Of a DNA stretch of 37,935 nt, positions 1 to 37,935 are shown piece after piece; position 1 is the stretch's first letter, and every line of letters starts with the position of its first letter. Below the pieces are notes generated by a model. The model did not search any database and was not told the DNA's origin. It worked only from the letters and a program-made list of their open reading frames with translations. The DNA lies in IMG/VR virus record IMGVR_UViG_2909298281_000006, positions 1 through 37,935 of that record; one strand, 5' to 3'. This DNA is from a virus (taxonomy: Duplodnaviria; Heunggongvirae; Uroviricota; Caudoviricetes). A program made the position numbers and the translations under genes.

Positions 1-1005
1 TTAATCCCCCGTGGACACTGCGTGGACACTCACGCCACCTTTCAGCGGATTAAGGGCCACCGCATCCTGCAGGTAATCCGGTGCAAAATGTGCATATGCC
101 ATTGTTTGCTGAATGGTTGCGTGACCAAGAATCTTCTGAAGTGCAATAATGTTTCCTCCGTTCATCACAAAATGGCTGGCGAACGTATGCCGCAGCACAT
201 GTGCAGCCTGGCCTTTTGGTAAATCGGGCTTAACTCTTTTCAGCGCCAAGCAGAATTCCCGGTACTTCACCTCAAACAAGCCGCCTGTTTCTCTGGTTTT
301 GATCGCCTCACAAACTGCCTGCGAAATTGGCACTGTTCTTTTTCGGCCATTTTTGGTTTCAAGAAACGTTACACGGTTATGAACTATCTGTTCACCACGA
401 AGCTTACAAGCTTCACTCCAGCGCGCCCCTGTGCTTAAACACAAAAGCGCAACACGCCAGTAGTCGCCCTCCAGTGTATCGAGCAATAGCGCTACTTCCT
501 TCTGGGACAGGAAAGCCATTTCTCGTGGAGATACATAAAGAATAGAAATCCCCCTTACCGGATGCTCTGCATCCCAGAGGCCTATTTTCTTCAGTACGGT
601 AAACATTCCGGATAACCGATTCATGTATCTGTTAGCAGATGACGGTTTCAATCCATCAGCTATCTTTTGAGAACGCCACGCGATAATTTTCAGCTTATCA
701 AGATCCACAGCCTGCATATCAGCGCCAAGCTCATTGATTATGTTGCGCAGTTGTTTTCGATCTTCTTCAGCCTTACGCCTGTGCTGGCCGTGATACATCC
801 ACCACAACTCAAGCAAATCATTTAGCGTTCGACGATCACGGTAGCCCTGTATATATTCCCGCTTTTCAGCGTTCGCCATGATGTAGCGTTCAGTGGCCAC
901 CGCTACCGATTTTTTGTCAAATACCTTACGCACGCGCTTTCCCTTGCGTCCGTTCGGCCTGATGTCCAGCAAATAACGACCATCTTCGAGCTTCTTAATC
1001 GACAT
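1..1005 (-). CDS. int: P2-family tyrosine integrase
   Basis: ORF track 1..1020 starts at TTG; the ATG at 1005-1003 gives MSIKKLEDGRYLLDIRPNGRKGKR, closely matching the remembered P2 Int N-terminus. C-terminal LCLSTGARW...HVLRHTFASHF...LGH...YAHF catalytic region. Window begins exactly at the stop codon. Confidence 0.9.
   Translation of the reverse strand: MSIKKLEDGRYLLDIRPNGRKGKRVRKVFDKKSVAVATERYIMANAEKREYIQGYRDRRTLNDLLELWWMYHGQHRRKAEEDRKQLRNIINELGADMQAVDLDKLKIIAWRSQKIADGLKPSSANRYMNRLSGMFTVLKKIGLWDAEHPVRGISILYVSPREMAFLSQKEVALLLDTLEGDYWRVALLCLSTGARWSEACKLRGEQIVHNRVTFLETKNGRKRTVPISQAVCEAIKTRETGGLFEVKYREFCLALKRVKPDLPKGQAAHVLRHTFASHFVMNGGNIIALQKILGHATIQQTMAYAHFAPDYLQDAVALNPLKGGVSVHAVSTGD
11..28. 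repeat. Left copy of an 18-bp direct repeat GTGGACACTGCGTGGACA (partner at 36755..36772), inside the int 3-prime end
   Basis: Read directly: 11..28 GTGGACACTGCGTGGACA versus 36755..36772 GTGGTCACTGCGTGGACA, 17 of 18 identical. Confidence 0.5.
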
Positions 1006-1469: not shown

Positions 1470-1520
1470 TTAAATAGCCAAAATAAGCCTATATAAGCCA
1501 TTTTGGGCCATTTGGACGAA
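1470..1520. promoter_or_regulatory. Putative C/cox switch operator-promoter region
   Basis: In the 97-bp gap between divergent C and cox: inverted pair GCCAAAAT (1477-1484) / ATTTTGGG (1500-1507) flanking TATATAA, plus direct repeat GCCATTTTGG / GCCATTTGG (1498-1516). Confidence 0.4.
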
Positions 1521-3823: not shown

Positions 3824-4119
3824 GCACCATCAACCACCAGAAGCTACGCGAACTGGCATTTGCCCTGCAACGAATGGCAACGCCTCAAAAATTACTGGCA
3901 TTTCGCGCAATGCTCTCGCCGTCTGCTGTGCTGGCACTGCTGAATGAGCTGGAGCACGCCAGAACCACAGCTCCTGCCATTCGCCTGACACTCCATCATG
4001 AAATCGCTGATTTCTGCGCACCACTGGGTTCGCCCGGTGAACCAGAAACGCCGGAAGCAATGCAACGAGAGCTACTGCAACGCATCGACAAGGTTTTTGA
4101 TTTTTTCCTTAACCAGTAA
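3820..4119 (+). CDS. Hypothetical protein (99 aa)
   Basis: ORF translationally coupled to the upstream gene. Confidence 0.5.
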   Translation: MSTINHQKLRELAFALQRMATPQKLLAFRAMLSPSAVLALLNELEHARTTAPAIRLTLHHEIADFCAPLGSPGEPETPEAMQRELLQRIDKVFDFFLNQ

Positions 4120-23261: not shown

Positions 23262-25811
23262 ATGAGTACCACAACACGTAAATTTAAAACCGTTATCACC
23301 GATACGGGTGCAAAAAAATTAGCTCAGGCAGCCGCGCCAGATGGTAAGCCTGTCCGCCTGACTCATATGGCCGTGGGCGACGGTGGCGGCACGTTGCCCA
23401 CACCAGACAGTAAGCAGACCCGTCTGGTGCATGAGGTGTGGCGACATACTGTTAATCGCGTCATCCTGGACGCAACACATCAGAACCGCATTATTGCGGA
23501 GCTGGTTATTCCTCCTGAAACGGGCGGATTCTGGATCCGGGAAATTGGTGTATTTGATGAGCACGGCGATTTAATCGCGGTGGGCAATACTGCCGAAAGT
23601 TACAAGCCAGCCGTTGCCGAAGGGTCCGGTCGTGCACAAACATTTCGCACCATTCTGACCGTATCCAGCACTGCCACCGTGGCGCTTACCGTGGATAACA
23701 CCATGGTGATGGCCACAGTGGATTACGTGGATGACAAACTGAAAGAGCATGAACAGTCACGACGTCACCCGGACGCCTCGCTGACCGCAAAAGGCTTTGT
23801 TCAACTCAGTAGCGCCACTAACAGCGTGTCTGAAACGCAGGCTGCAACGCCGAAAGCAGTAAAGGCCGCGTATGATCTTGCTAACGGTAAATATACTGCG
23901 CAGGATGCCACCACAGCGCGAAAAGGCCTTGTCCAGCTCAGTAGCGCCACCAACAGCACGTCTGAAACGCTGGCGGCAACGCCAAAGGCAGTAAAATCAG
24001 CCTATGACAATGCAGAGAAACGTCTGCAGAAAGACCAGAACGGCGCTGATATACCCGATAAGGGACGCTTCCTGAACAACATTAACGCGGTCAGTAAAAC
24101 AGACTTTGCTGATAAGCGTGGTATGCGTTATGTGCGGGTTAACGCTCCTGCAGGTGCAACATCTGGAAAATATTACCCTGTTGTTGTTATGCGTTCTGCT
24201 GGCTCAGTAAGCGAACTGGCATCAAGGGTCATTATCACCACGGCAACGCGAACCGCAGGCGATCCGATGAATAACTGCGAGTTTAACGGATTTGTTATGC
24301 CTGGTGGCTGGACTGACAGGGGGCGTTATGCTTATGGAATGTTCTGGCAATATCAAAACAATGAACGAGCCATCCACTCAATAATGATGAGTAATAAGGG
24401 CGATGATTTGCGCTCTGTGTTCTATGTTGATGGCGCTGCTTTCCCTGTTTTTGCGTTTATCGAAGATGGCCTGTCAATATCCGCACCTGGTACTGATCTC
24501 GTTGTTAATGATACGACCTATAAGTTTGGGGCAACAAATCCGGCGACTGAATGTATCGCGGCGGACGTTATCCTTGATTTTAAGAGTGGGCGTGGTTTTT
24601 ATGAGTCTCATTCGTTAATCGTTAACGATAACTTGTCGTGCAAAAAACTTTTTGCCACAGACGAAATTGTAGCGCGTGGTGGTAATCAGATTCGAATGAT
24701 AGGTGGGGAGTATGGGGCATTATGGCGTAATGATGGCGCTAAAACTTACCTGCTGCTTACCAATCAAGGTGATGTTTATGGTGGCTGGAATACATTAAGA
24801 CCGTTTGCTATTGATAACGCAACCGGCGAACTGGTTATTGGAACCAAACTGTCCGCAAGTCTGAACGGTAATGCATTAACAGCAACAAAGCTGCAAACGC
24901 CAAGACGGGTTTCTGGTGTTGAGTTTGATGGTTCCAAAGATATTACTTTAACCGCCGCGCATGTGGCTGCTTTTGCCAGAAGGGCAACGGATACATATGC
25001 CGATGCGGATGGTGGCGTTCCCTGGAATGCCGAATCAGGCGCTTATAATGTCACCCGCTCTGGCGACAGCTATATTCTGGTTAACTTCTATACCGGAGTC
25101 GGAAGTTGCCGGACCTTGCAGATGAAGGCGCATTACAGAAATGGTGGTCTGTTCTACCGTTCTTCAAGAGACGGTTATGGTTTTGAGGAAGACTGGGCAG
25201 AAATTTATACCTCGAAAAGTCTTCCACCGGAAAGCTACCCAGTCGGCGCACCAATCCCGTGGCCATCAGATACCGTTCCGTCTCGTTATGTCCTGATGCA
25301 GGGGCAGACTTTTGACAAATCTGCCTACCCGAAACTTGCAGTGGCTTATCCGTCAGGCGTTATTCCTGATATGCGTGGCTGGACGATTAAGGGCAAGCCC
25401 GCCAGTGGTCGTGCCGTATTGTCTCAGGAACAGGACGGCATTAAATCGCACACCCACAGCGCCAGCGCATCCAGTACTAATTTGGGGACGAAAACCACAT
25501 CGTCGTTTGATTACGGAACTAAATCCACAAATAACACCGGAGCACATACACACAACTTTGCTTACAACAATACTTCAGCATACGCAGAAACTCCCGGTAC
25601 CGGTGGTGGAATGCATGCAAGTAACACAAGCAAGACAGCAAGTAATCGTGTATTAAGCGCAGGAGCTCATGCTCACACAGTAGCAATAGGTGCGCATACA
25701 CATACGCTCGCTATTGGTTCGCATACACACACCATTACCATTGCCGCTTATGGCAACGCGGAAAACACCGTAAAAAACATCGCATTTAACTATATTGTGA
25801 GGCTTGCATAA
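23262..25811 (+). CDS. H: Tail fibre protein H
   Basis: 849 aa; two copies of [24 protein letters not shown]; C-terminal tail-collar-like PDMRG segment and HTH-triplet His-rich tip. Confidence 0.85.
23793..24007 (+). repeat. Two ~83-bp direct repeats (period 132 bp) inside H encoding the tail-fibre repeat
   Basis: Read directly: 23793-23875 and 23925-24007 are highly similar. Confidence 0.6.
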
Positions 25812-34993: not shown

Positions 34994-35206
34994 ATGGTCG
35001 GAGGGAATACCCGAAGGCCAGATGTGGAAAGGCCCCGGAAAACATCCCTGTTTAACCGAGGCCCTAACCGCATTACCTTGACAAGTGAAAGGTTAGCGCC
35101 TCTCCGAAAAAGGAGCAAGTGCTATGTCGCAAAAATCGCTTACGGCCATCACGTTCTGCGTGACGGCAATCCTCATCATCTGGATGCTGCACGGTTCGCT
35201 GTGTGA
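34994..35206 (+). CDS. mok-like overlapping reading frame (70 codons) upstream of and overlapping the hok-like gene
   Basis: ATG 34994; 70-codon ORF ending inside the hok-like gene in another frame, mirroring the mok/hok arrangement. Confidence 0.3.
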   Translation: MVGGNTRRPDVERPRKTSLFNRGPNRITLTSERLAPLRKRSKCYVAKIAYGHHVLRDGNPHHLDAARFAV

Positions 35207-35263
35207 AATACGGATGAGTTTCTGGGGAGCGGAGTTTGCGGCGTTCTTACAGTGTAAGCAGTA
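35123..35263 (+). CDS. Hok/Gef-family type I toxin (46 aa)
   Basis: MSQKSLTAITFCVTAILIIWMLHGSLCEIRMSFWGAEFAAFLQCKQ: N-terminal TM then SLCEIR and EFAAF, the Hok signature (cf. Hok ...KSLCEIRYRDGHREVAAF...); GGAG 8 nt upstream. Confidence 0.65.
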
Positions 35264-35441
35264 AGGAAACCGCGACGGGGAGCAATCCCCCGGTCAATCA
35301 GTTGCCAGAGTAAGGTCGATAAGGCATCCTGTCTCATTCTATACCAGCTAATCAATTGACACATATCAATAAAAAGCCTGATAAAATCAAAATGTTTTGT
35401 TACAAATGTCAGCTAGTAGAGAGCCAAAGGAGGCAGATTAT

Positions 35442-35774
35442 ATGGCATTAATCAAATGTCCTGAATGCCAGAAAGAGGTGATCGATTCAGTATTGTCTTG
35501 CCCTGCTTGTGGCAAACAACTGAAAAAACTTAAACGTTCATTTTTTGGAGAACTCATTAAGTATTTTTTCATATTATTTAATATTTTTATAATCTACACG
35601 ATTTGTGTTGGGCTAAGAGAGGTTGGTGAAATAATAAACAACGCCACATCCGATGCCGAAAAAGCCGGTACAGTTATTGGTACGGGCTTAGGTTTAATTG
35701 CTATTGGAGGCTTATGGGTTATTGGCAATATCATTATCGGAAATTTAGTATTTCTTACTAAACCAAAGGGATAA
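35442..35774 (+). CDS. Zinc-ribbon membrane protein (110 aa)
   Basis: ATG 35442 after AAAGGAGG; CPEC...CPACG zinc ribbon followed by two hydrophobic helices; AT-rich. Confidence 0.55.
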   Translation: MALIKCPECQKEVIDSVLSCPACGKQLKKLKRSFFGELIKYFFILFNIFIIYTICVGLREVGEIINNATSDAEKAGTVIGTGLGLIAIGGLWVIGNIIIGNLVFLTKPKG

Positions 35775-35778
35775 CAAA

Positions 35779-36672
35779 ATGAAAAATATGATTATTTCTA
35801 TAGGTGCATCATTTATATCAATTAGTGTGCTACCTGCTCACGCAGCAACTGAGCATAATAACTTTAAGTCATCACTCCAGTGCCGAGCAATAGAAAATAA
35901 TAAAGAAAGACTTTCTTGTTATGATAAGTCAATACAACCGACTCGAACGACAGTTGCTGAAAAATTCGAAAGCAGAGATCAATGCCCTGATGAGAAAGAT
36001 GATGACAGACGTTTATCTTGTTATGACCGTTTTTTTTCTCCAACATTTACTCCGCCTGTAAGCTCAAAATCTAAATCGAAACAGCTAGTAACAACAGAGG
36101 CTCAGCAACCAAATCTTTCTGAGATATCTAAATGCCGAGCAGAAACCGATAAAGAAACTAGAGTAAACTGCTACGATAAACTATTTCCACAGGAAAAAGT
36201 TGCGCAATCTAAATCAAAATTAGAGAAAGCCACAGACACAGGAAAATGGCACACATCCATTACTACATCGCCAATTGATGATTCGAAAAATGTAATTTTA
36301 TCGTTAGAAAGTGATGATTATATAAGAACTCCATTTGGAGAAGCGGTTACCCCTACTCTGTTTATAGCTTGCCGAGAAAAGAAAACCGAAGTATTTCTTA
36401 ATTGGGATGTATATTTAGGCCTTGAACAAACCAGCATGCTGTATCGCCTTGATAAACAGAAAGCAGTTGAGCGAAACTGGCTAGTATCTACAGATACAAA
36501 GGCTGTTTTTTATAAAGGCAATGACATTAACTTCATCAGAAAACTAGCCAACTCAAACAAAATGTATGCAAAAATAACCCCTTATAATGAAAGCCCTGTA
36601 AGTGCAACTTTCAATTTAAACGGCCTGTCAACCACGCTAAAACCGCTTCAAGAAGCCTGTAACTGGAAATAG
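35779..36672 (+). CDS. Secreted protein with three Cys-containing repeats
   Basis: Signal peptide MKNMIISIGASFISISVLPAHA; three repeats C-x7/8-R-[LV]-x-C-Y-D-[KR] (RLSCYDK, RLSCYDR, RVNCYDK); AT-rich. Confidence 0.6.
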   Translation: MKNMIISIGASFISISVLPAHAATEHNNFKSSLQCRAIENNKERLSCYDKSIQPTRTTVAEKFESRDQCPDEKDDDRRLSCYDRFFSPTFTPPVSSKSKSKQLVTTEAQQPNLSEISKCRAETDKETRVNCYDKLFPQEKVAQSKSKLEKATDTGKWHTSITTSPIDDSKNVILSLESDDYIRTPFGEAVTPTLFIACREKKTEVFLNWDVYLGLEQTSMLYRLDKQKAVERNWLVSTDTKAVFYKGNDINFIRKLANSNKMYAKITPYNESPVSATFNLNGLSTTLKPLQEACNWK

Positions 36673-36701
36673 TATAAACCATGCGGCTAAGCCACAATCA
36701 C

Positions 36702-36741
36702 AGATAACACAAAGCCCGTGAAAACGGGCTTTGTGTTATCT
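36702..36741. terminator. Perfect 17-bp-stem hairpin after the secreted-protein gene
   Basis: AGATAACACAAAGCCCG-TGAAAA-CGGGCTTTGTGTTATCT. Confidence 0.5.
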
Positions 36742-36754
36742 ATAACTCGAAAAT

Positions 36755-36772
36755 GTGGTCACTGCGTGGACA
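36755..36772. repeat. Right copy of the 18-bp direct repeat GTGGTCACTGCGTGGACA (partner at 11..28)
   Basis: 17 of 18 identical to 11..28; its reverse-strand reading ...VHAVTTFSSYR-stop mimics the Int C-terminus ...VHAVSTGD-stop. Confidence 0.5.
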
Positions 36773-36939
36773 TGCGCCGATACAAATCCTTTTATATCAA
36801 AAAGTTAAATCAACATCTTTTTCATCAACAAGGATTTTCACGTTTGTGTTACCTGTATGAGACGAGAGTTAACCGGACAAGTGTGCCATAATCTCGCGGC
36901 CAGGCATACTTGCGAAGATTTCAGGTATAAGGATACGTA

Positions 36940-37935
36940 ATGATACAACCTATTTCCGGCCCTCCTCCTGGGCAACCACCAGGTCAGGGAGATAACCTGC
37001 CGTCTGGCGCGGGCAATCAGCCTTTATCCAGTCAGCAACGTACTTCGCTGGAAAGCTTAATGACGAAAGTGACCTCACTGACGCAACAGCAAAGAGCAGA
37101 ACTGTGGGCGGGTATCAGGCACGATATTGGTCTGTCGGGAGATTCACCGCTGCTTTCGCGTCACTTCCCTGCCGCTGAGCATAACCTGGCGCAACGTCTG
37201 CTGGCCGCGCAAAAAAGCCATTCTGCCCGCCAGCTTTTAGCGCAATTAGGGGAGTATTTACGTCTGGGGAATAATCGTCAGGCGGTCACGGATTATATCC
37301 GTCATAACTTTGGTCAGACGCCGCTGAATCAGCTCTCACCGGAGCAATTAAAAACCATTCTCACCCTGTTGCAGGAAGGGAAGATGGTTATTCCGCAACC
37401 ACAGCAGCGCGAGGCGACCGACCGTCCTTTATTACCGGCGGAGCACAATGCGCTAAAACAGCTGGTGACCAAACTTGCGGCGGCAACGGGGGAACCCAGC
37501 AAACAGATCTGGCAATCGATGCTGGAACTTTCCGGGGTGAAAGATGGCGAGTTAATTCCAGCGAAACTGTTTAACCATCTGGTGACCTGGCTACAGGCGC
37601 GTCAGACGCTAAGCCAGCAAAATACGCCGACGCTGGAATCACTACAGATGACGCTAAAACAACCTTTAGATGCCAGTGAACTGGCGGCGTTATCGGCATA
37701 TATCCAGCAAAAATATGGTCTTTCTGCGCAATCATCGCTTTCTTCTGCCCAGGCCGAGGATATTCTTAATCAGCTTTATCAACGGCGGGTTAAAGGGATT
37801 GATCCGCGTGTTATGCAACCGCTGCTTAATCCTTTTCCACCGATGATGGACACGTTGCAAAATATGGCAACGCGTCCCGCGCTGTGGATACTGTTAGTCG
37901 CGATTATCCTGATGCTGGTCTGGCTGGTTCGTTAA
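36940..37935 (+). CDS. Hypothetical tail-anchored membrane protein (Pro/Gln-rich N-terminus, C-terminal TM), probably host flank
   Basis: 331 aa; MIQPISGPPPGQPPGQ...; C-terminal TM ALWILLVAIILMLVWLV; AAGGA SD; window ends exactly at its stop. Confidence 0.6.
   Translation: MIQPISGPPPGQPPGQGDNLPSGAGNQPLSSQQRTSLESLMTKVTSLTQQQRAELWAGIRHDIGLSGDSPLLSRHFPAAEHNLAQRLLAAQKSHSARQLLAQLGEYLRLGNNRQAVTDYIRHNFGQTPLNQLSPEQLKTILTLLQEGKMVIPQPQQREATDRPLLPAEHNALKQLVTKLAAATGEPSKQIWQSMLELSGVKDGELIPAKLFNHLVTWLQARQTLSQQNTPTLESLQMTLKQPLDASELAALSAYIQQKYGLSAQSSLSSAQAEDILNQLYQRRVKGIDPRVMQPLLNPFPPMMDTLQNMATRPALWILLVAIILMLVWLVR

What the first reader, a model, noticed from the sequence alone, without database searches (positions are those of the whole stretch)
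36742..36790. 18-bp near-identical direct repeat at both ends of the window: att core candidate or integrase 3-prime-end relic
GTGGACACTGCGTGGACA (11-28, inside the int 3-prime end) recurs as GTGGTCACTGCGTGGACA at 36755-36772. Read on the minus strand the right copy would encode ...VHAVTTFSSYR-stop, mimicking the Int C-terminus ...VHAVSTGD-stop. Either this is the core shared by attL and attR, which would put hok and the two AT-rich genes inside the prophage as a third cargo locus next to att, or it is a relic of another P2-type int 3-prime end from an earlier integration. I could not find the classical P2 core (AAAAAATAAGCCCGTGTAAGGGAGATT, the cyaR terminator) after ogr.
Basis: partly seen in the sequence, partly recalled or inferred. 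Interest (0 to 1): 0.45.

Follow-up and report, generated by a model that had tools for sequence, protein, structure and literature searches.

The report
P2-type integrase arm-binding sites
The repeat at both ends of this P2-like prophage is real, but it is the pair of "arm" sites where the phage integrase docks on either side of the true attachment core, an ordinary and already described feature of P2-family phages.

Summary
The repeat exists: GTGGACACTGCGTGGACA at 11-28 and GTGGTCACTGCGTGGACA at 36755-36772, 17 of 18 bases. It is neither the crossover core nor an int relic.

Empty-site E. coli genomes, attL-bearing lysogens and a free phage genome (P88_4B11) place the core at TTTTCATCAACAAGGATTTT, window 36819-36838. 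This is the 5' end of host pdxB, 47 bp right of the repeat. The same site was determined experimentally for phage phiSM, whose int is about 96% identical. The attL core lies about 180-200 bp left of window position 1.

Each copy is two GTGG(A/T)CA heptamers 11 bp apart, matching the published P2-type Int arm-site consensus tgTGGaCa. Both copies align without gaps to the "Int P arm" and "Int P' arm" features annotated in the phage P2 record. The offsets to the IHF box and to the int stop codon are the same as in P2.

In 20 distinct P arms chosen without reference to the repeat, 0 of 14 heptamer positions vary, against 12 of 15 spacer and linker positions.

This is a known kind of element and of low interest. 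Int binding in this phage is inferred, not shown.

The parts
11..28 (+). P' arm: two arm-type Int sites, GTGGACA at 11-17 and 22-28, with an 11-bp period. They lie inside the last codons of int (minus strand, ...SVHAVSTGD*). In the prophage this is the attL side.
   Evidence: Aligns to the P2 feature 'Int P' arm' (L006 471-497). The first heptamer starts 10 nt from the first base of the stop codon in both phages. Heptamers are invariant in 18 distinct relatives.
1..1005 (-). int, a P2-type tyrosine integrase of 334 aa. Its N-terminal arm-binding domain has the P2-type residues Y11, D14 and R16.
   Evidence: 50% identical to P2 Int, E 2e-121. Pfam Int_N and Phage_integrase. N-terminal alignment against 186 Int, which has W, E and Y at these positions. 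The discriminator residues are described in PMC3448106.
36702..36741 (+). Hairpin with an 18-bp perfect stem. It is the terminator of the cargo/late transcript and lies 13 nt before the P arm sites, as the ogr terminator does in P2.
   Evidence: Fold of -35.8 kcal/mol, z = -9.9. P2 layout.
36746..36754 (+). CTCGAAAAT: an invariant 9 nt at the left edge of the conserved attP. Homology between phages with different cargo resumes here.
   Evidence: 0 of 9 positions vary among 20 distinct P arms, while 51 of 52 positions further left vary. Chuche alignment. Role unknown.
36755..36772 (+). P arm: two arm-type Int sites, GTGGTCA at 36755-36761 and GTGGACA at 36766-36772, with an 11-bp period. In the prophage this is the attR side. 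This is the finding's right copy.
   Evidence: Ungapped 39/48 alignment to the P2 'Int P arm' plus IHF box. 0 of 14 heptamer positions vary against 12 of 15 spacer and linker positions, Fisher p = 1e-5.
36784..36807 (+). Probable IHF site. The box AAATCCTTTTATATCAA is shared with P2. TATCAAAAAGTTA (36795-36807) matches WATCAANNNNTTR perfectly.
   Evidence: The box starts 29 nt from the first heptamer, as in P2, where this stretch is annotated as an IHF binding site. The consensus match alone is weak: 3 matches in the window against 1.6 expected.
36819..36838 (+). True attR core TTTTCATCAACAAGGATTTT, which is codons 2-7 of host pdxB on the minus strand. The crossover happens within it.
   Evidence: Empty-site genomes match only from 36819. 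attB, attL and attR compared. The attL junction is present in 303 of 5426 genomes. The phiSM attP core ATCCTTGTTGATGAAAA was determined experimentally (PMC6456863).
36797..36841 (-). Stub of the original pdxB 5' end: a GTG start, six native codons, then phage sequence up to a stop. It is left behind at attR.
   Evidence: Read from the sequence against the pdxB start in strain EC11.
35124..36672 (+). Cargo genes inside the prophage, between ogr and the P arm: hok (35124-35264), a zinc-ribbon membrane protein (35442-35774) and a VasI/TagO-like protein (35779-36672).
   Evidence: Pfam HOK_GEF, Zn_Ribbon_1 and VasI. The zinc-ribbon and VasI/TagO-like homologues are carried next to attP in phage P88_4B11.
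36940..37935 (+). Host gene flk, outside the prophage.
   Evidence: Annotated as flk in all matching E. coli genomes.

Best explanation
The two 18-bp copies are the P-arm and P'-arm binding sites for the N-terminal domain of the prophage's P2-type integrase.

In the circular phage, attP reads: terminator hairpin, then the P arm (GTGGTCA-N4-GTGGACA), an IHF site, the 20-bp core TTTTCATCAACAAGGATTTT, about 180 bp that carry a replacement pdxB 5' end and presumably Cox sites, and then the P' arm (GTGGACA-N4-GTGGACA) inside the last codons of int.

Int is heterobivalent. Its N-terminal domain holds the arm sites, two per arm and one helical turn apart. Its core-binding and catalytic domains hold the core. 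IHF bends the P arm so that a single Int can bridge arm and core.

Recombination with attB, in the 5' end of host pdxB, splits attP at the core. The P arm ends up at attR (window 36755-36772) and the P' arm at attL (window 11-28). The sites therefore appear as a direct repeat near both prophage ends.

Shown here: the sequence, the position relative to the real core, collinear homology to the annotated P2 sites, the conservation pattern, and a P2-type Int N-domain. Inferred: that Int of this phage physically binds these sites and needs them.
For: 1. Core location. Empty-site genomes align to the window only from 36819 and to attL only up to the core. attB, attL and attR share exactly TTTTCATCAACAAGGATTTT. 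Phage P88_4B11 has the contiguous attP, with both repeat copies flanking the core. The phiSM attP/attB was determined experimentally as ATCCTTGTTGATGAAAA in pdxB (PMC6456863), and its int is about 96% identical in DNA.

2. P2 record NC_001895. It annotates Int 'P arm', IHF, core, Cox and Int "P' arm", the last inside the int 3' end. The window's P arm aligns without gaps, 39/48, to the P2 P arm plus IHF box. The window's int 3' end aligns to the P2 P' arm. The offsets are identical in the two phages: heptamer to IHF box 29 nt, stop codon to first P' heptamer 10 nt, and an 11-bp period. These offsets were read from the sequences.

3. Published consensus. [quoted passage not shown]

4. Conservation. 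In 46 P arms (20 distinct) selected only by IHF box plus core, 0 of 14 heptamer positions vary. By contrast 4 of 4 spacer, 8 of 11 linker and 51 of 52 upstream positions vary (p = 1e-5).

5. Specificity. The doublet pattern occurs only at these two places in the window and only four times in the reconstructed attP.

6. Int N-terminus. It has the P2-type residues Y11, D14 and R16, whereas 186 Int has W, E and Y.

7. Modularity. The same P-arm plus IHF module is joined to at least five different cores in viral contigs. Other P2-type phages (P2_2H1, D8) have doublets on both arms.

8. Age of the mismatch. The A/T difference between the copies (GTGGTCA as the first P-arm site) is also present in P2, D8 and P2_2H1. 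It is therefore old and conserved, not decay.
Against: No binding or mutational data exist for this phage, so Int binding is inferred by homology.

The annotated P2 features are taken from a database record, and I could not read the original footprinting papers.

Conservation of the P' arm cannot be separated from coding constraint. None of the 5 third-codon positions inside the heptamers varies, against 23 of 92 third positions overall, which is not significant.

The P' arm here lies about 190 bp from the core, against about 90 bp in P2.

The attL core and most of the P' arm are outside the window. They were read from a related strain (no107, int region 99.2% identical), not from the source genome.
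Confidence: 0.9

Rival explanations
1. The 18-mer is the common core (crossover sequence) shared by attL and attR.
For: It is a direct repeat near both ends of the prophage.
Against: Homology with empty-site genomes starts at 36819, 47 bp right of the right copy. It ends about 180 bp left of the left copy. attB contains no copy of the 18-mer. Free-phage attP carries both copies, separated by the real core. The core of a near-identical phage was mapped experimentally elsewhere, in pdxB.
Confidence: 0.01
2. The right copy is a relic of the 3' end of another P2-type int gene, left by an earlier integration.
For: Read on the minus strand, the right copy gives VHAVTTF, resembling the Int tail VHAVST (tblastn E = 0.078 in a tiny search space).
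Against: The similarity stops at the 18 bp at both DNA and protein level. The element is part of virion-borne attP in P88_4B11. It is collinear with P2's P arm plus IHF site, where no int relic exists. Its heptamers are invariant while the spacer and flanks vary, which is the opposite of a decaying pseudogene.
Confidence: 0.02
3. The repeat is a chance match with no function.
For: A direct pair of at least 17/18 occurs somewhere in 24 of 60 random 38-kb sequences. The window holds other short two-copy matches.
Against: It has an internal 11-bp doublet structure found only at these two places. It sits symmetrically in attP. It is homologous to annotated P2 sites. The heptamers are invariant across relatives.
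Confidence: 0.02
4. The doublets are real protein-binding sites, but for a factor other than Int, such as Cox, the C repressor or a host protein.
For: No binding data exist for this phage. Recombination directionality factors also bind direct repeats one helical turn apart (abstract of PMC7498355).
Against: P2 Cox boxes have a different consensus, TTAAA(G/C)NC(A/C) (PMC3936717), and no match was found. The sequence matches the Int arm consensus and the Int-labelled features of P2. No doublet of the sites lies in the C-cox switch region, where Cox and C must bind.
Confidence: 0.04

Closest known systems
Phage P2 attP: Int arm-type sites P and P' (record NC_001895; consensus tgTGGaCa, Nilsson et al. 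2011, PMC3448106)
   Same: Two direct heptamer/octamer repeats per arm with an 11-bp period. The first P-arm site is TGTGGTCA. A terminator lies just upstream of the P arm. The IHF box AAATCCTTTTAT.TCAA sits at the same 29-nt offset. The P' doublet starts 10 nt into the int 3' end and encodes the Int tail VH(T/A)VST. The Int N-domain is of P2 type.
   Different: The core and host target differ: the pdxB 5' end here, against the intergenic P2 core AAAAAATAAGCCCGTGTAAGGGAGATT. The core-to-P' distance is about 190 bp, against about 90 bp, with the extra DNA carrying a replacement pdxB 5' end. No P2-type cox boxes were recognisable. Int is only 50% identical.
Citrobacter/E. coli phage phiSM and phage P88_4B11 (Xuanwuvirus), which integrate into pdxB (Magaziner et al. 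2019, PMC6456863)
   Same: The int is about 96-98% identical in DNA. The core, both arm doublets, the P' arm and the cargo (zinc-ribbon and VasI/TagO-like genes) are the same.
   Different: There are a few substitutions in the 4-nt spacer and in the linker. The paper maps the core but has no occurrence of the terms arm, IHF or Cox.
Phage lambda attP arm-type sites (P1, P2, P'1-P'3)
   Same: The principle is the same: a heterobivalent Int bridges arm and core sites with the help of IHF, and an excisionase sets the direction of the reaction (established knowledge).
   Different: The site sequence, number and arrangement differ. Lambda's arm sites are not inside int.
Phage 186 attP arm sites (consensus YAYCGCCAYTY / tgccGCCActt)
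   Same: The phage family (Peduoviridae) and the architecture are the same.
   Different: The arm-site sequence differs, and so do the Int N-domain residues (W, E, Y against Y, D, R). Phage 186 targets a tRNA gene.

Membership tests
P2-type Int arm-binding sites | Sequence matches the consensus tgTGGaCa | tested here: met
   The four sites are TGTGGTCA, cGTGGACA, cGTGGACA and cGTGGACA. The consensus comes from PMC3448106.
P2-type Int arm-binding sites | [quoted passage not shown] | tested here: met
   One doublet per arm, all on the + strand, and no other copies in the 539-bp reconstructed attP.
P2-type Int arm-binding sites | Position in attP as in P2: the P arm lies between the late terminator and the IHF site, and the P' arm lies in the int 3' end | tested here: met
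   The P2 record's annotation and ungapped alignments with identical offsets. The contiguous attP of P88_4B11.
P2-type Int arm-binding sites | The cognate Int has the P2-type N-terminal arm-binding domain | tested here: met
   Y11, D14 and R16 as in P2, against W, E and Y in 186. The N-terminal 41 residues are about 70% identical to P2, against 50% overall (my count).
P2-type Int arm-binding sites | The sites are conserved beyond their surroundings | tested here: met
   P arm: 0 of 14 heptamer positions vary against 12 of 15 in spacer and linker, p = 1e-5. The P' arm is inconclusive because it is coding sequence.
P2-type Int arm-binding sites | Int physically binds the sites, and they are required for recombination | not testable with these tools
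   Needs EMSA or footprinting and attP mutants.
att common core (crossover site) | The same sequence is present in attB, and homology to the empty site breaks at it | tested here: not met
   attB lacks the 18-mer. The homology breaks lie at the 20-bp core, 36819-36838.
Integrase gene remnant | int-like sequence extends beyond the repeat, and the remnant decays freely | tested here: not met
   No extension was found. The heptamers are invariant while the flanks vary.

The most novel reading that the evidence does not exclude
Because the P' doublet lies inside the int reading frame, and therefore in the int mRNA, it may have a second role. The phage-supplied pdxB 5' end and its presumed promoter also lie between the core and this doublet. 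The arm sites could thus serve as an operator for Int autoregulation. P2 Int is cited as a viral protein controlled through binding its own mRNA (Yu et al. 1994, as cited in PMC11789052; I could not read the paper itself). In the lysogen, Int/Cox/IHF assembly on attL could also modulate expression of host pdxB, which is needed for vitamin B6 synthesis. Nothing here tests either idea.
Probability: 0.1. Interest if true: 0.4.

Novelty: already known. Interest (0 to 1): 0.1.

Why it matters
Mainly as a correction.

- The prophage's right boundary is 36819-36838, in pdxB. Its left boundary lies about 180-200 bp beyond the start of the window.
- The three small cargo genes are phage-borne.
- The 18-bp repeat should be annotated as Int arm sites, not as att cores.

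There is also a practical lesson. In P2-family prophages a GTGGACA doublet near each end marks the arms. The true core then lies about 65 bp downstream of the P-arm doublet, and provirus calls that start at the int stop codon cut off attL. No new biology follows from this finding.

Tried and rejected
1. Second doublet downstream of P-arm matches in IMG/VR contigs. Only 1 of 99 had one, because nearly all are integrated forms in which host DNA follows the core. The test was uninformative for the P' arm.

2. Codon-level conservation of the P' arm. 0 of 5 third-codon positions vary, against 25% overall, which is not significant.

3. P2 cox boxes in the P' arm and in the C-cox switch region. No match with one mismatch or fewer was found. 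AGCC boxes with a 10-bp period at 1476-1509 are a lead only.

4. Sigma-70-type promoter for the re-headed pdxB in the P' arm. There was only one weak consensus match, no better than in shuffles.

5. IHF consensus as independent evidence. There are 3 matches in the window against 1.6 expected, so it is weak on its own.

6. Supplement Fig. S4 of PMC3448106 and the papers PMC1482927 and PMC236345 are not held.

7. The record NC_049343 'phage 500465-2' was set aside as evidence for attP, because it contains host flk and yfcJ.

Full report
**Observation.** The window starts at the stop codon of a minus-strand integrase gene (1-1005). GTGGACACTGCGTGGACA lies at 11-28 and GTGGTCACTGCGTGGACA at 36755-36772, a 17/18 match on the same strand. 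The similarity does not extend beyond 18 bp.

Length alone is not remarkable. An all-against-all search finds a direct pair of at least 17/18 in 24 of 60 randomised 38-kb sequences. What is unusual is the structure: each copy is a GTGGWCA heptamer repeated after 11 bp. The pattern GTGGWCA-N4-GTGGWCA occurs only at these two places, against 0.07 expected.

**Where the prophage really ends.** Window 36400-37400 was searched against 5,426 complete E. coli genomes. About 5,200 genomes match only from window position 36819 rightwards, and in them pdxB directly abuts flk. A lysogen with a 99.2% identical int region (strain no107, L001) shows what lies left of the window: a 180-bp phage segment, then pdxB. 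An attL probe from that strain matches empty-site genomes only up to L001 3818, and 303 of 5,426 genomes carry the full junction.

The three sites compare as follows:

| Site | Sequence |
|---|---|
| attB | catatTTTCATCAACAAGGATTTTcacg |
| attL | catatTTTCATCAACAAGGATTTTtaac |
| attR | catctTTTTCATCAACAAGGATTTTcacg |

They share the 20-bp core TTTTCATCAACAAGGATTTT, which is window 36819-36838. On the minus strand this is codons 2-7 of pdxB.

The genome record of phage P88_4B11 (NC_049391) carries the uninterrupted attP: VasI/TagO-like gene, hairpin, GTGGTCATTGCGTGGACA, IHF-like box, core, 180 bp, int stop codon, GTGGACACTGCGTGGACA. For phage phiSM, whose int is 96.4% identical in DNA, the attP/attB core was determined experimentally as ATCCTTGTTGATGAAAA, 6 bp inside pdxB (PMC6456863). 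That is the reverse complement of window 36819-36835.

The repeat is therefore not the crossover core. The right copy lies 47 bp left of the core. The left copy lies about 190 bp to the other side of it, and the attL core is outside the window.

**What the repeat is.** The RefSeq record of phage P2 annotates its attP in this order:

- the ogr terminator
- protein_bind Int 'P arm'
- IHF
- Int 'attP core'
- Cox
- Int "P' arm"

The last feature lies inside the 3' end of int. The P2 P arm reads TGTGGTCAatgTGTGGACG and the P2 P' arm TGTGGACActgTGTGGACA.

The window's right copy and its surroundings align without gaps to P2's P arm plus IHF box, 39 of 48 positions. This alignment includes the shared box AAATCCTTTTAT(A/T)TCAA, which starts 29 nt from the first heptamer in both phages. 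The window's left copy aligns to P2's P' arm. In both phages the first heptamer starts 10 nt from the first base of the int stop codon, so the sites encode the Int tails SVHTVSTVE* (P2) and SVHAVSTGD* (here).

Nilsson et al. [quoted passage not shown] These are recognised by the Int N-terminal domain. The same paper gives the residues that separate P2-type from 186-type integrases. The Int here has the P2-type residues Y11, D14 and R16, where 186 Int has W, E and Y. Int is 50% identical to P2 Int overall.

**Conservation test.** To avoid ascertainment bias, I collected P arms from viral contigs using only the IHF box and the core as the search pattern. This gave 46 loci and 20 distinct sequences.

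| Region | Variable positions |
|---|---|
| Two heptamers | 0 of 14 |
| 4-nt spacer | 4 of 4 |
| Linker to the IHF box | 8 of 11 |
| Further upstream (different cargo terminators) | 51 of 52 |

The Fisher test of heptamers against spacer plus linker gives p = 1e-5. Nine bases left of the first heptamer (CTCGAAAAT, 36746-36754) are also invariant and mark the left edge of conserved attP. Phage Chuche, which carries Com and a DNA methyltransferase instead of the zinc-ribbon and TagO-like genes, regains homology exactly there.

For the P' arm, the heptamers are invariant in 18 distinct relatives. Because they are coding sequence, this is not significant on its own.

A P-arm pattern scan shows the same doublet plus IHF box, at a fixed offset, joined to at least five different cores, including the classical P2 core. 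Other P2-type phages (P2_2H1, D8) have doublets on both arms. SEN4 and ESSI2 have variant arrangements.

**Mechanism.** This part follows from established knowledge of heterobivalent tyrosine integrases and of P2, applied here by homology. Int's N-domain binds the two sites on each arm. Its other domains bind the core. IHF bends the P arm. Cox acts on the P' side to drive excision (PMC3448106, PMC3936717).

Integration into pdxB splits attP at the core, which puts the P arm at attR and the P' arm at attL. That is why a reader of the prophage sees a direct repeat near both ends. The single A/T difference (GTGGTCA as the first P-arm site) is shared with P2, D8 and P2_2H1, so it is an old feature of the site and not decay.

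The 'int relic' reading is not supported. There is no int-like sequence beyond the repeat, the element is part of virion-borne attP, and its conservation pattern is that of a binding site.

**Limits.** No experiment addresses Int binding in this phage. The P2 site annotations were taken from the database record, and the primary footprint papers are not held. The attL side was read from a related strain, not from the source genome. I could not identify Cox boxes or a convincing promoter for the re-headed pdxB.

**Verdict.** This is a real feature that is fully explained as P2-type integrase arm-binding sites flanking a known pdxB attachment core. It is already known in kind and of low interest.

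Noticed in passing
window 36797-36841 (minus strand); L001 3819-3842: The prophage interrupts host pdxB after codon 7. The phage P' arm supplies a Shine-Dalgarno sequence, a TTG start and 8 new codons, so pdxB is 385 aa in the lysogen against 378 aa in empty-site strains. A 14-codon stub of the original 5' end stays at attR. This was already described for phiSM (PMC6456863).
   Followed up: yes
window 36746-36754: CTCGAAAAT, immediately left of the first arm heptamer, is invariant in all 20 distinct P arms, although the DNA further left differs completely (at least four different cargo terminators). It may be an extension of the arm site or the fixed edge of a cargo-exchange slot. Its role is unknown.
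   Followed up: partly
window 35442-36672; L013 247-1189: The slot between hok and the P arm holds different cargo in relatives with the same int and attP. Here it holds a zinc-ribbon protein plus a VasI/TagO-like protein. In phage Chuche it holds Com plus a DNA methyltransferase.
   Followed up: partly
window 1476-1509: Four AGCC/GGCC boxes lie at an exact 10-bp period (1476, 1486, 1496, 1506) in the C-cox intergenic switch region. An AGCC...GGCT inverted pair also lies just before the int stop in the P' arm (L001 about 3955-3990). They are candidate Cox or C operators. The P2 cox-box consensus is absent.
   Followed up: partly
L007 (Salmonella phage SEN4), int 3' end and Int residue 16: SEN4 Int has W where P2-type integrases have the discriminator R16. 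The repeats next to its int stop are TGTAGACA twice, with an 11-bp period, instead of TGTGGACA. This could be co-variation between protein and arm site.
   Followed up: no
window 36702-36741: A hairpin with an 18-bp perfect stem (-35.8 kcal/mol, z = -9.9) follows the VasI/TagO-like gene and lies 13 nt before the P arm. The ogr terminator occupies the same position in P2.
   Followed up: yes
L005 (NC_049343.1, 'Escherichia phage 500465-2'): This RefSeq phage record contains the host genes flk and yfcJ to the right of attR. It is a mis-bounded prophage, not a packaged genome.
   Followed up: partly
L002 572-1660 (strain MB06101): In this otherwise 99.9% identical right end, an IS element (integrase core domain protein) is inserted between ogr and hok.
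   Followed up: no
window 1; loci L165-L204: Many IMG/VR proviruses of this clade begin exactly at the int stop codon, as this window does. They therefore lack the P' arm spacer and the attL core, which looks like a systematic boundary-calling artefact.
   Followed up: partly
window 23789-23875 and 23921-24007: An 87-nt internal direct repeat (84% identical, 132 nt apart) lies inside the large tail-fibre ORF (23262-25811).
   Followed up: no
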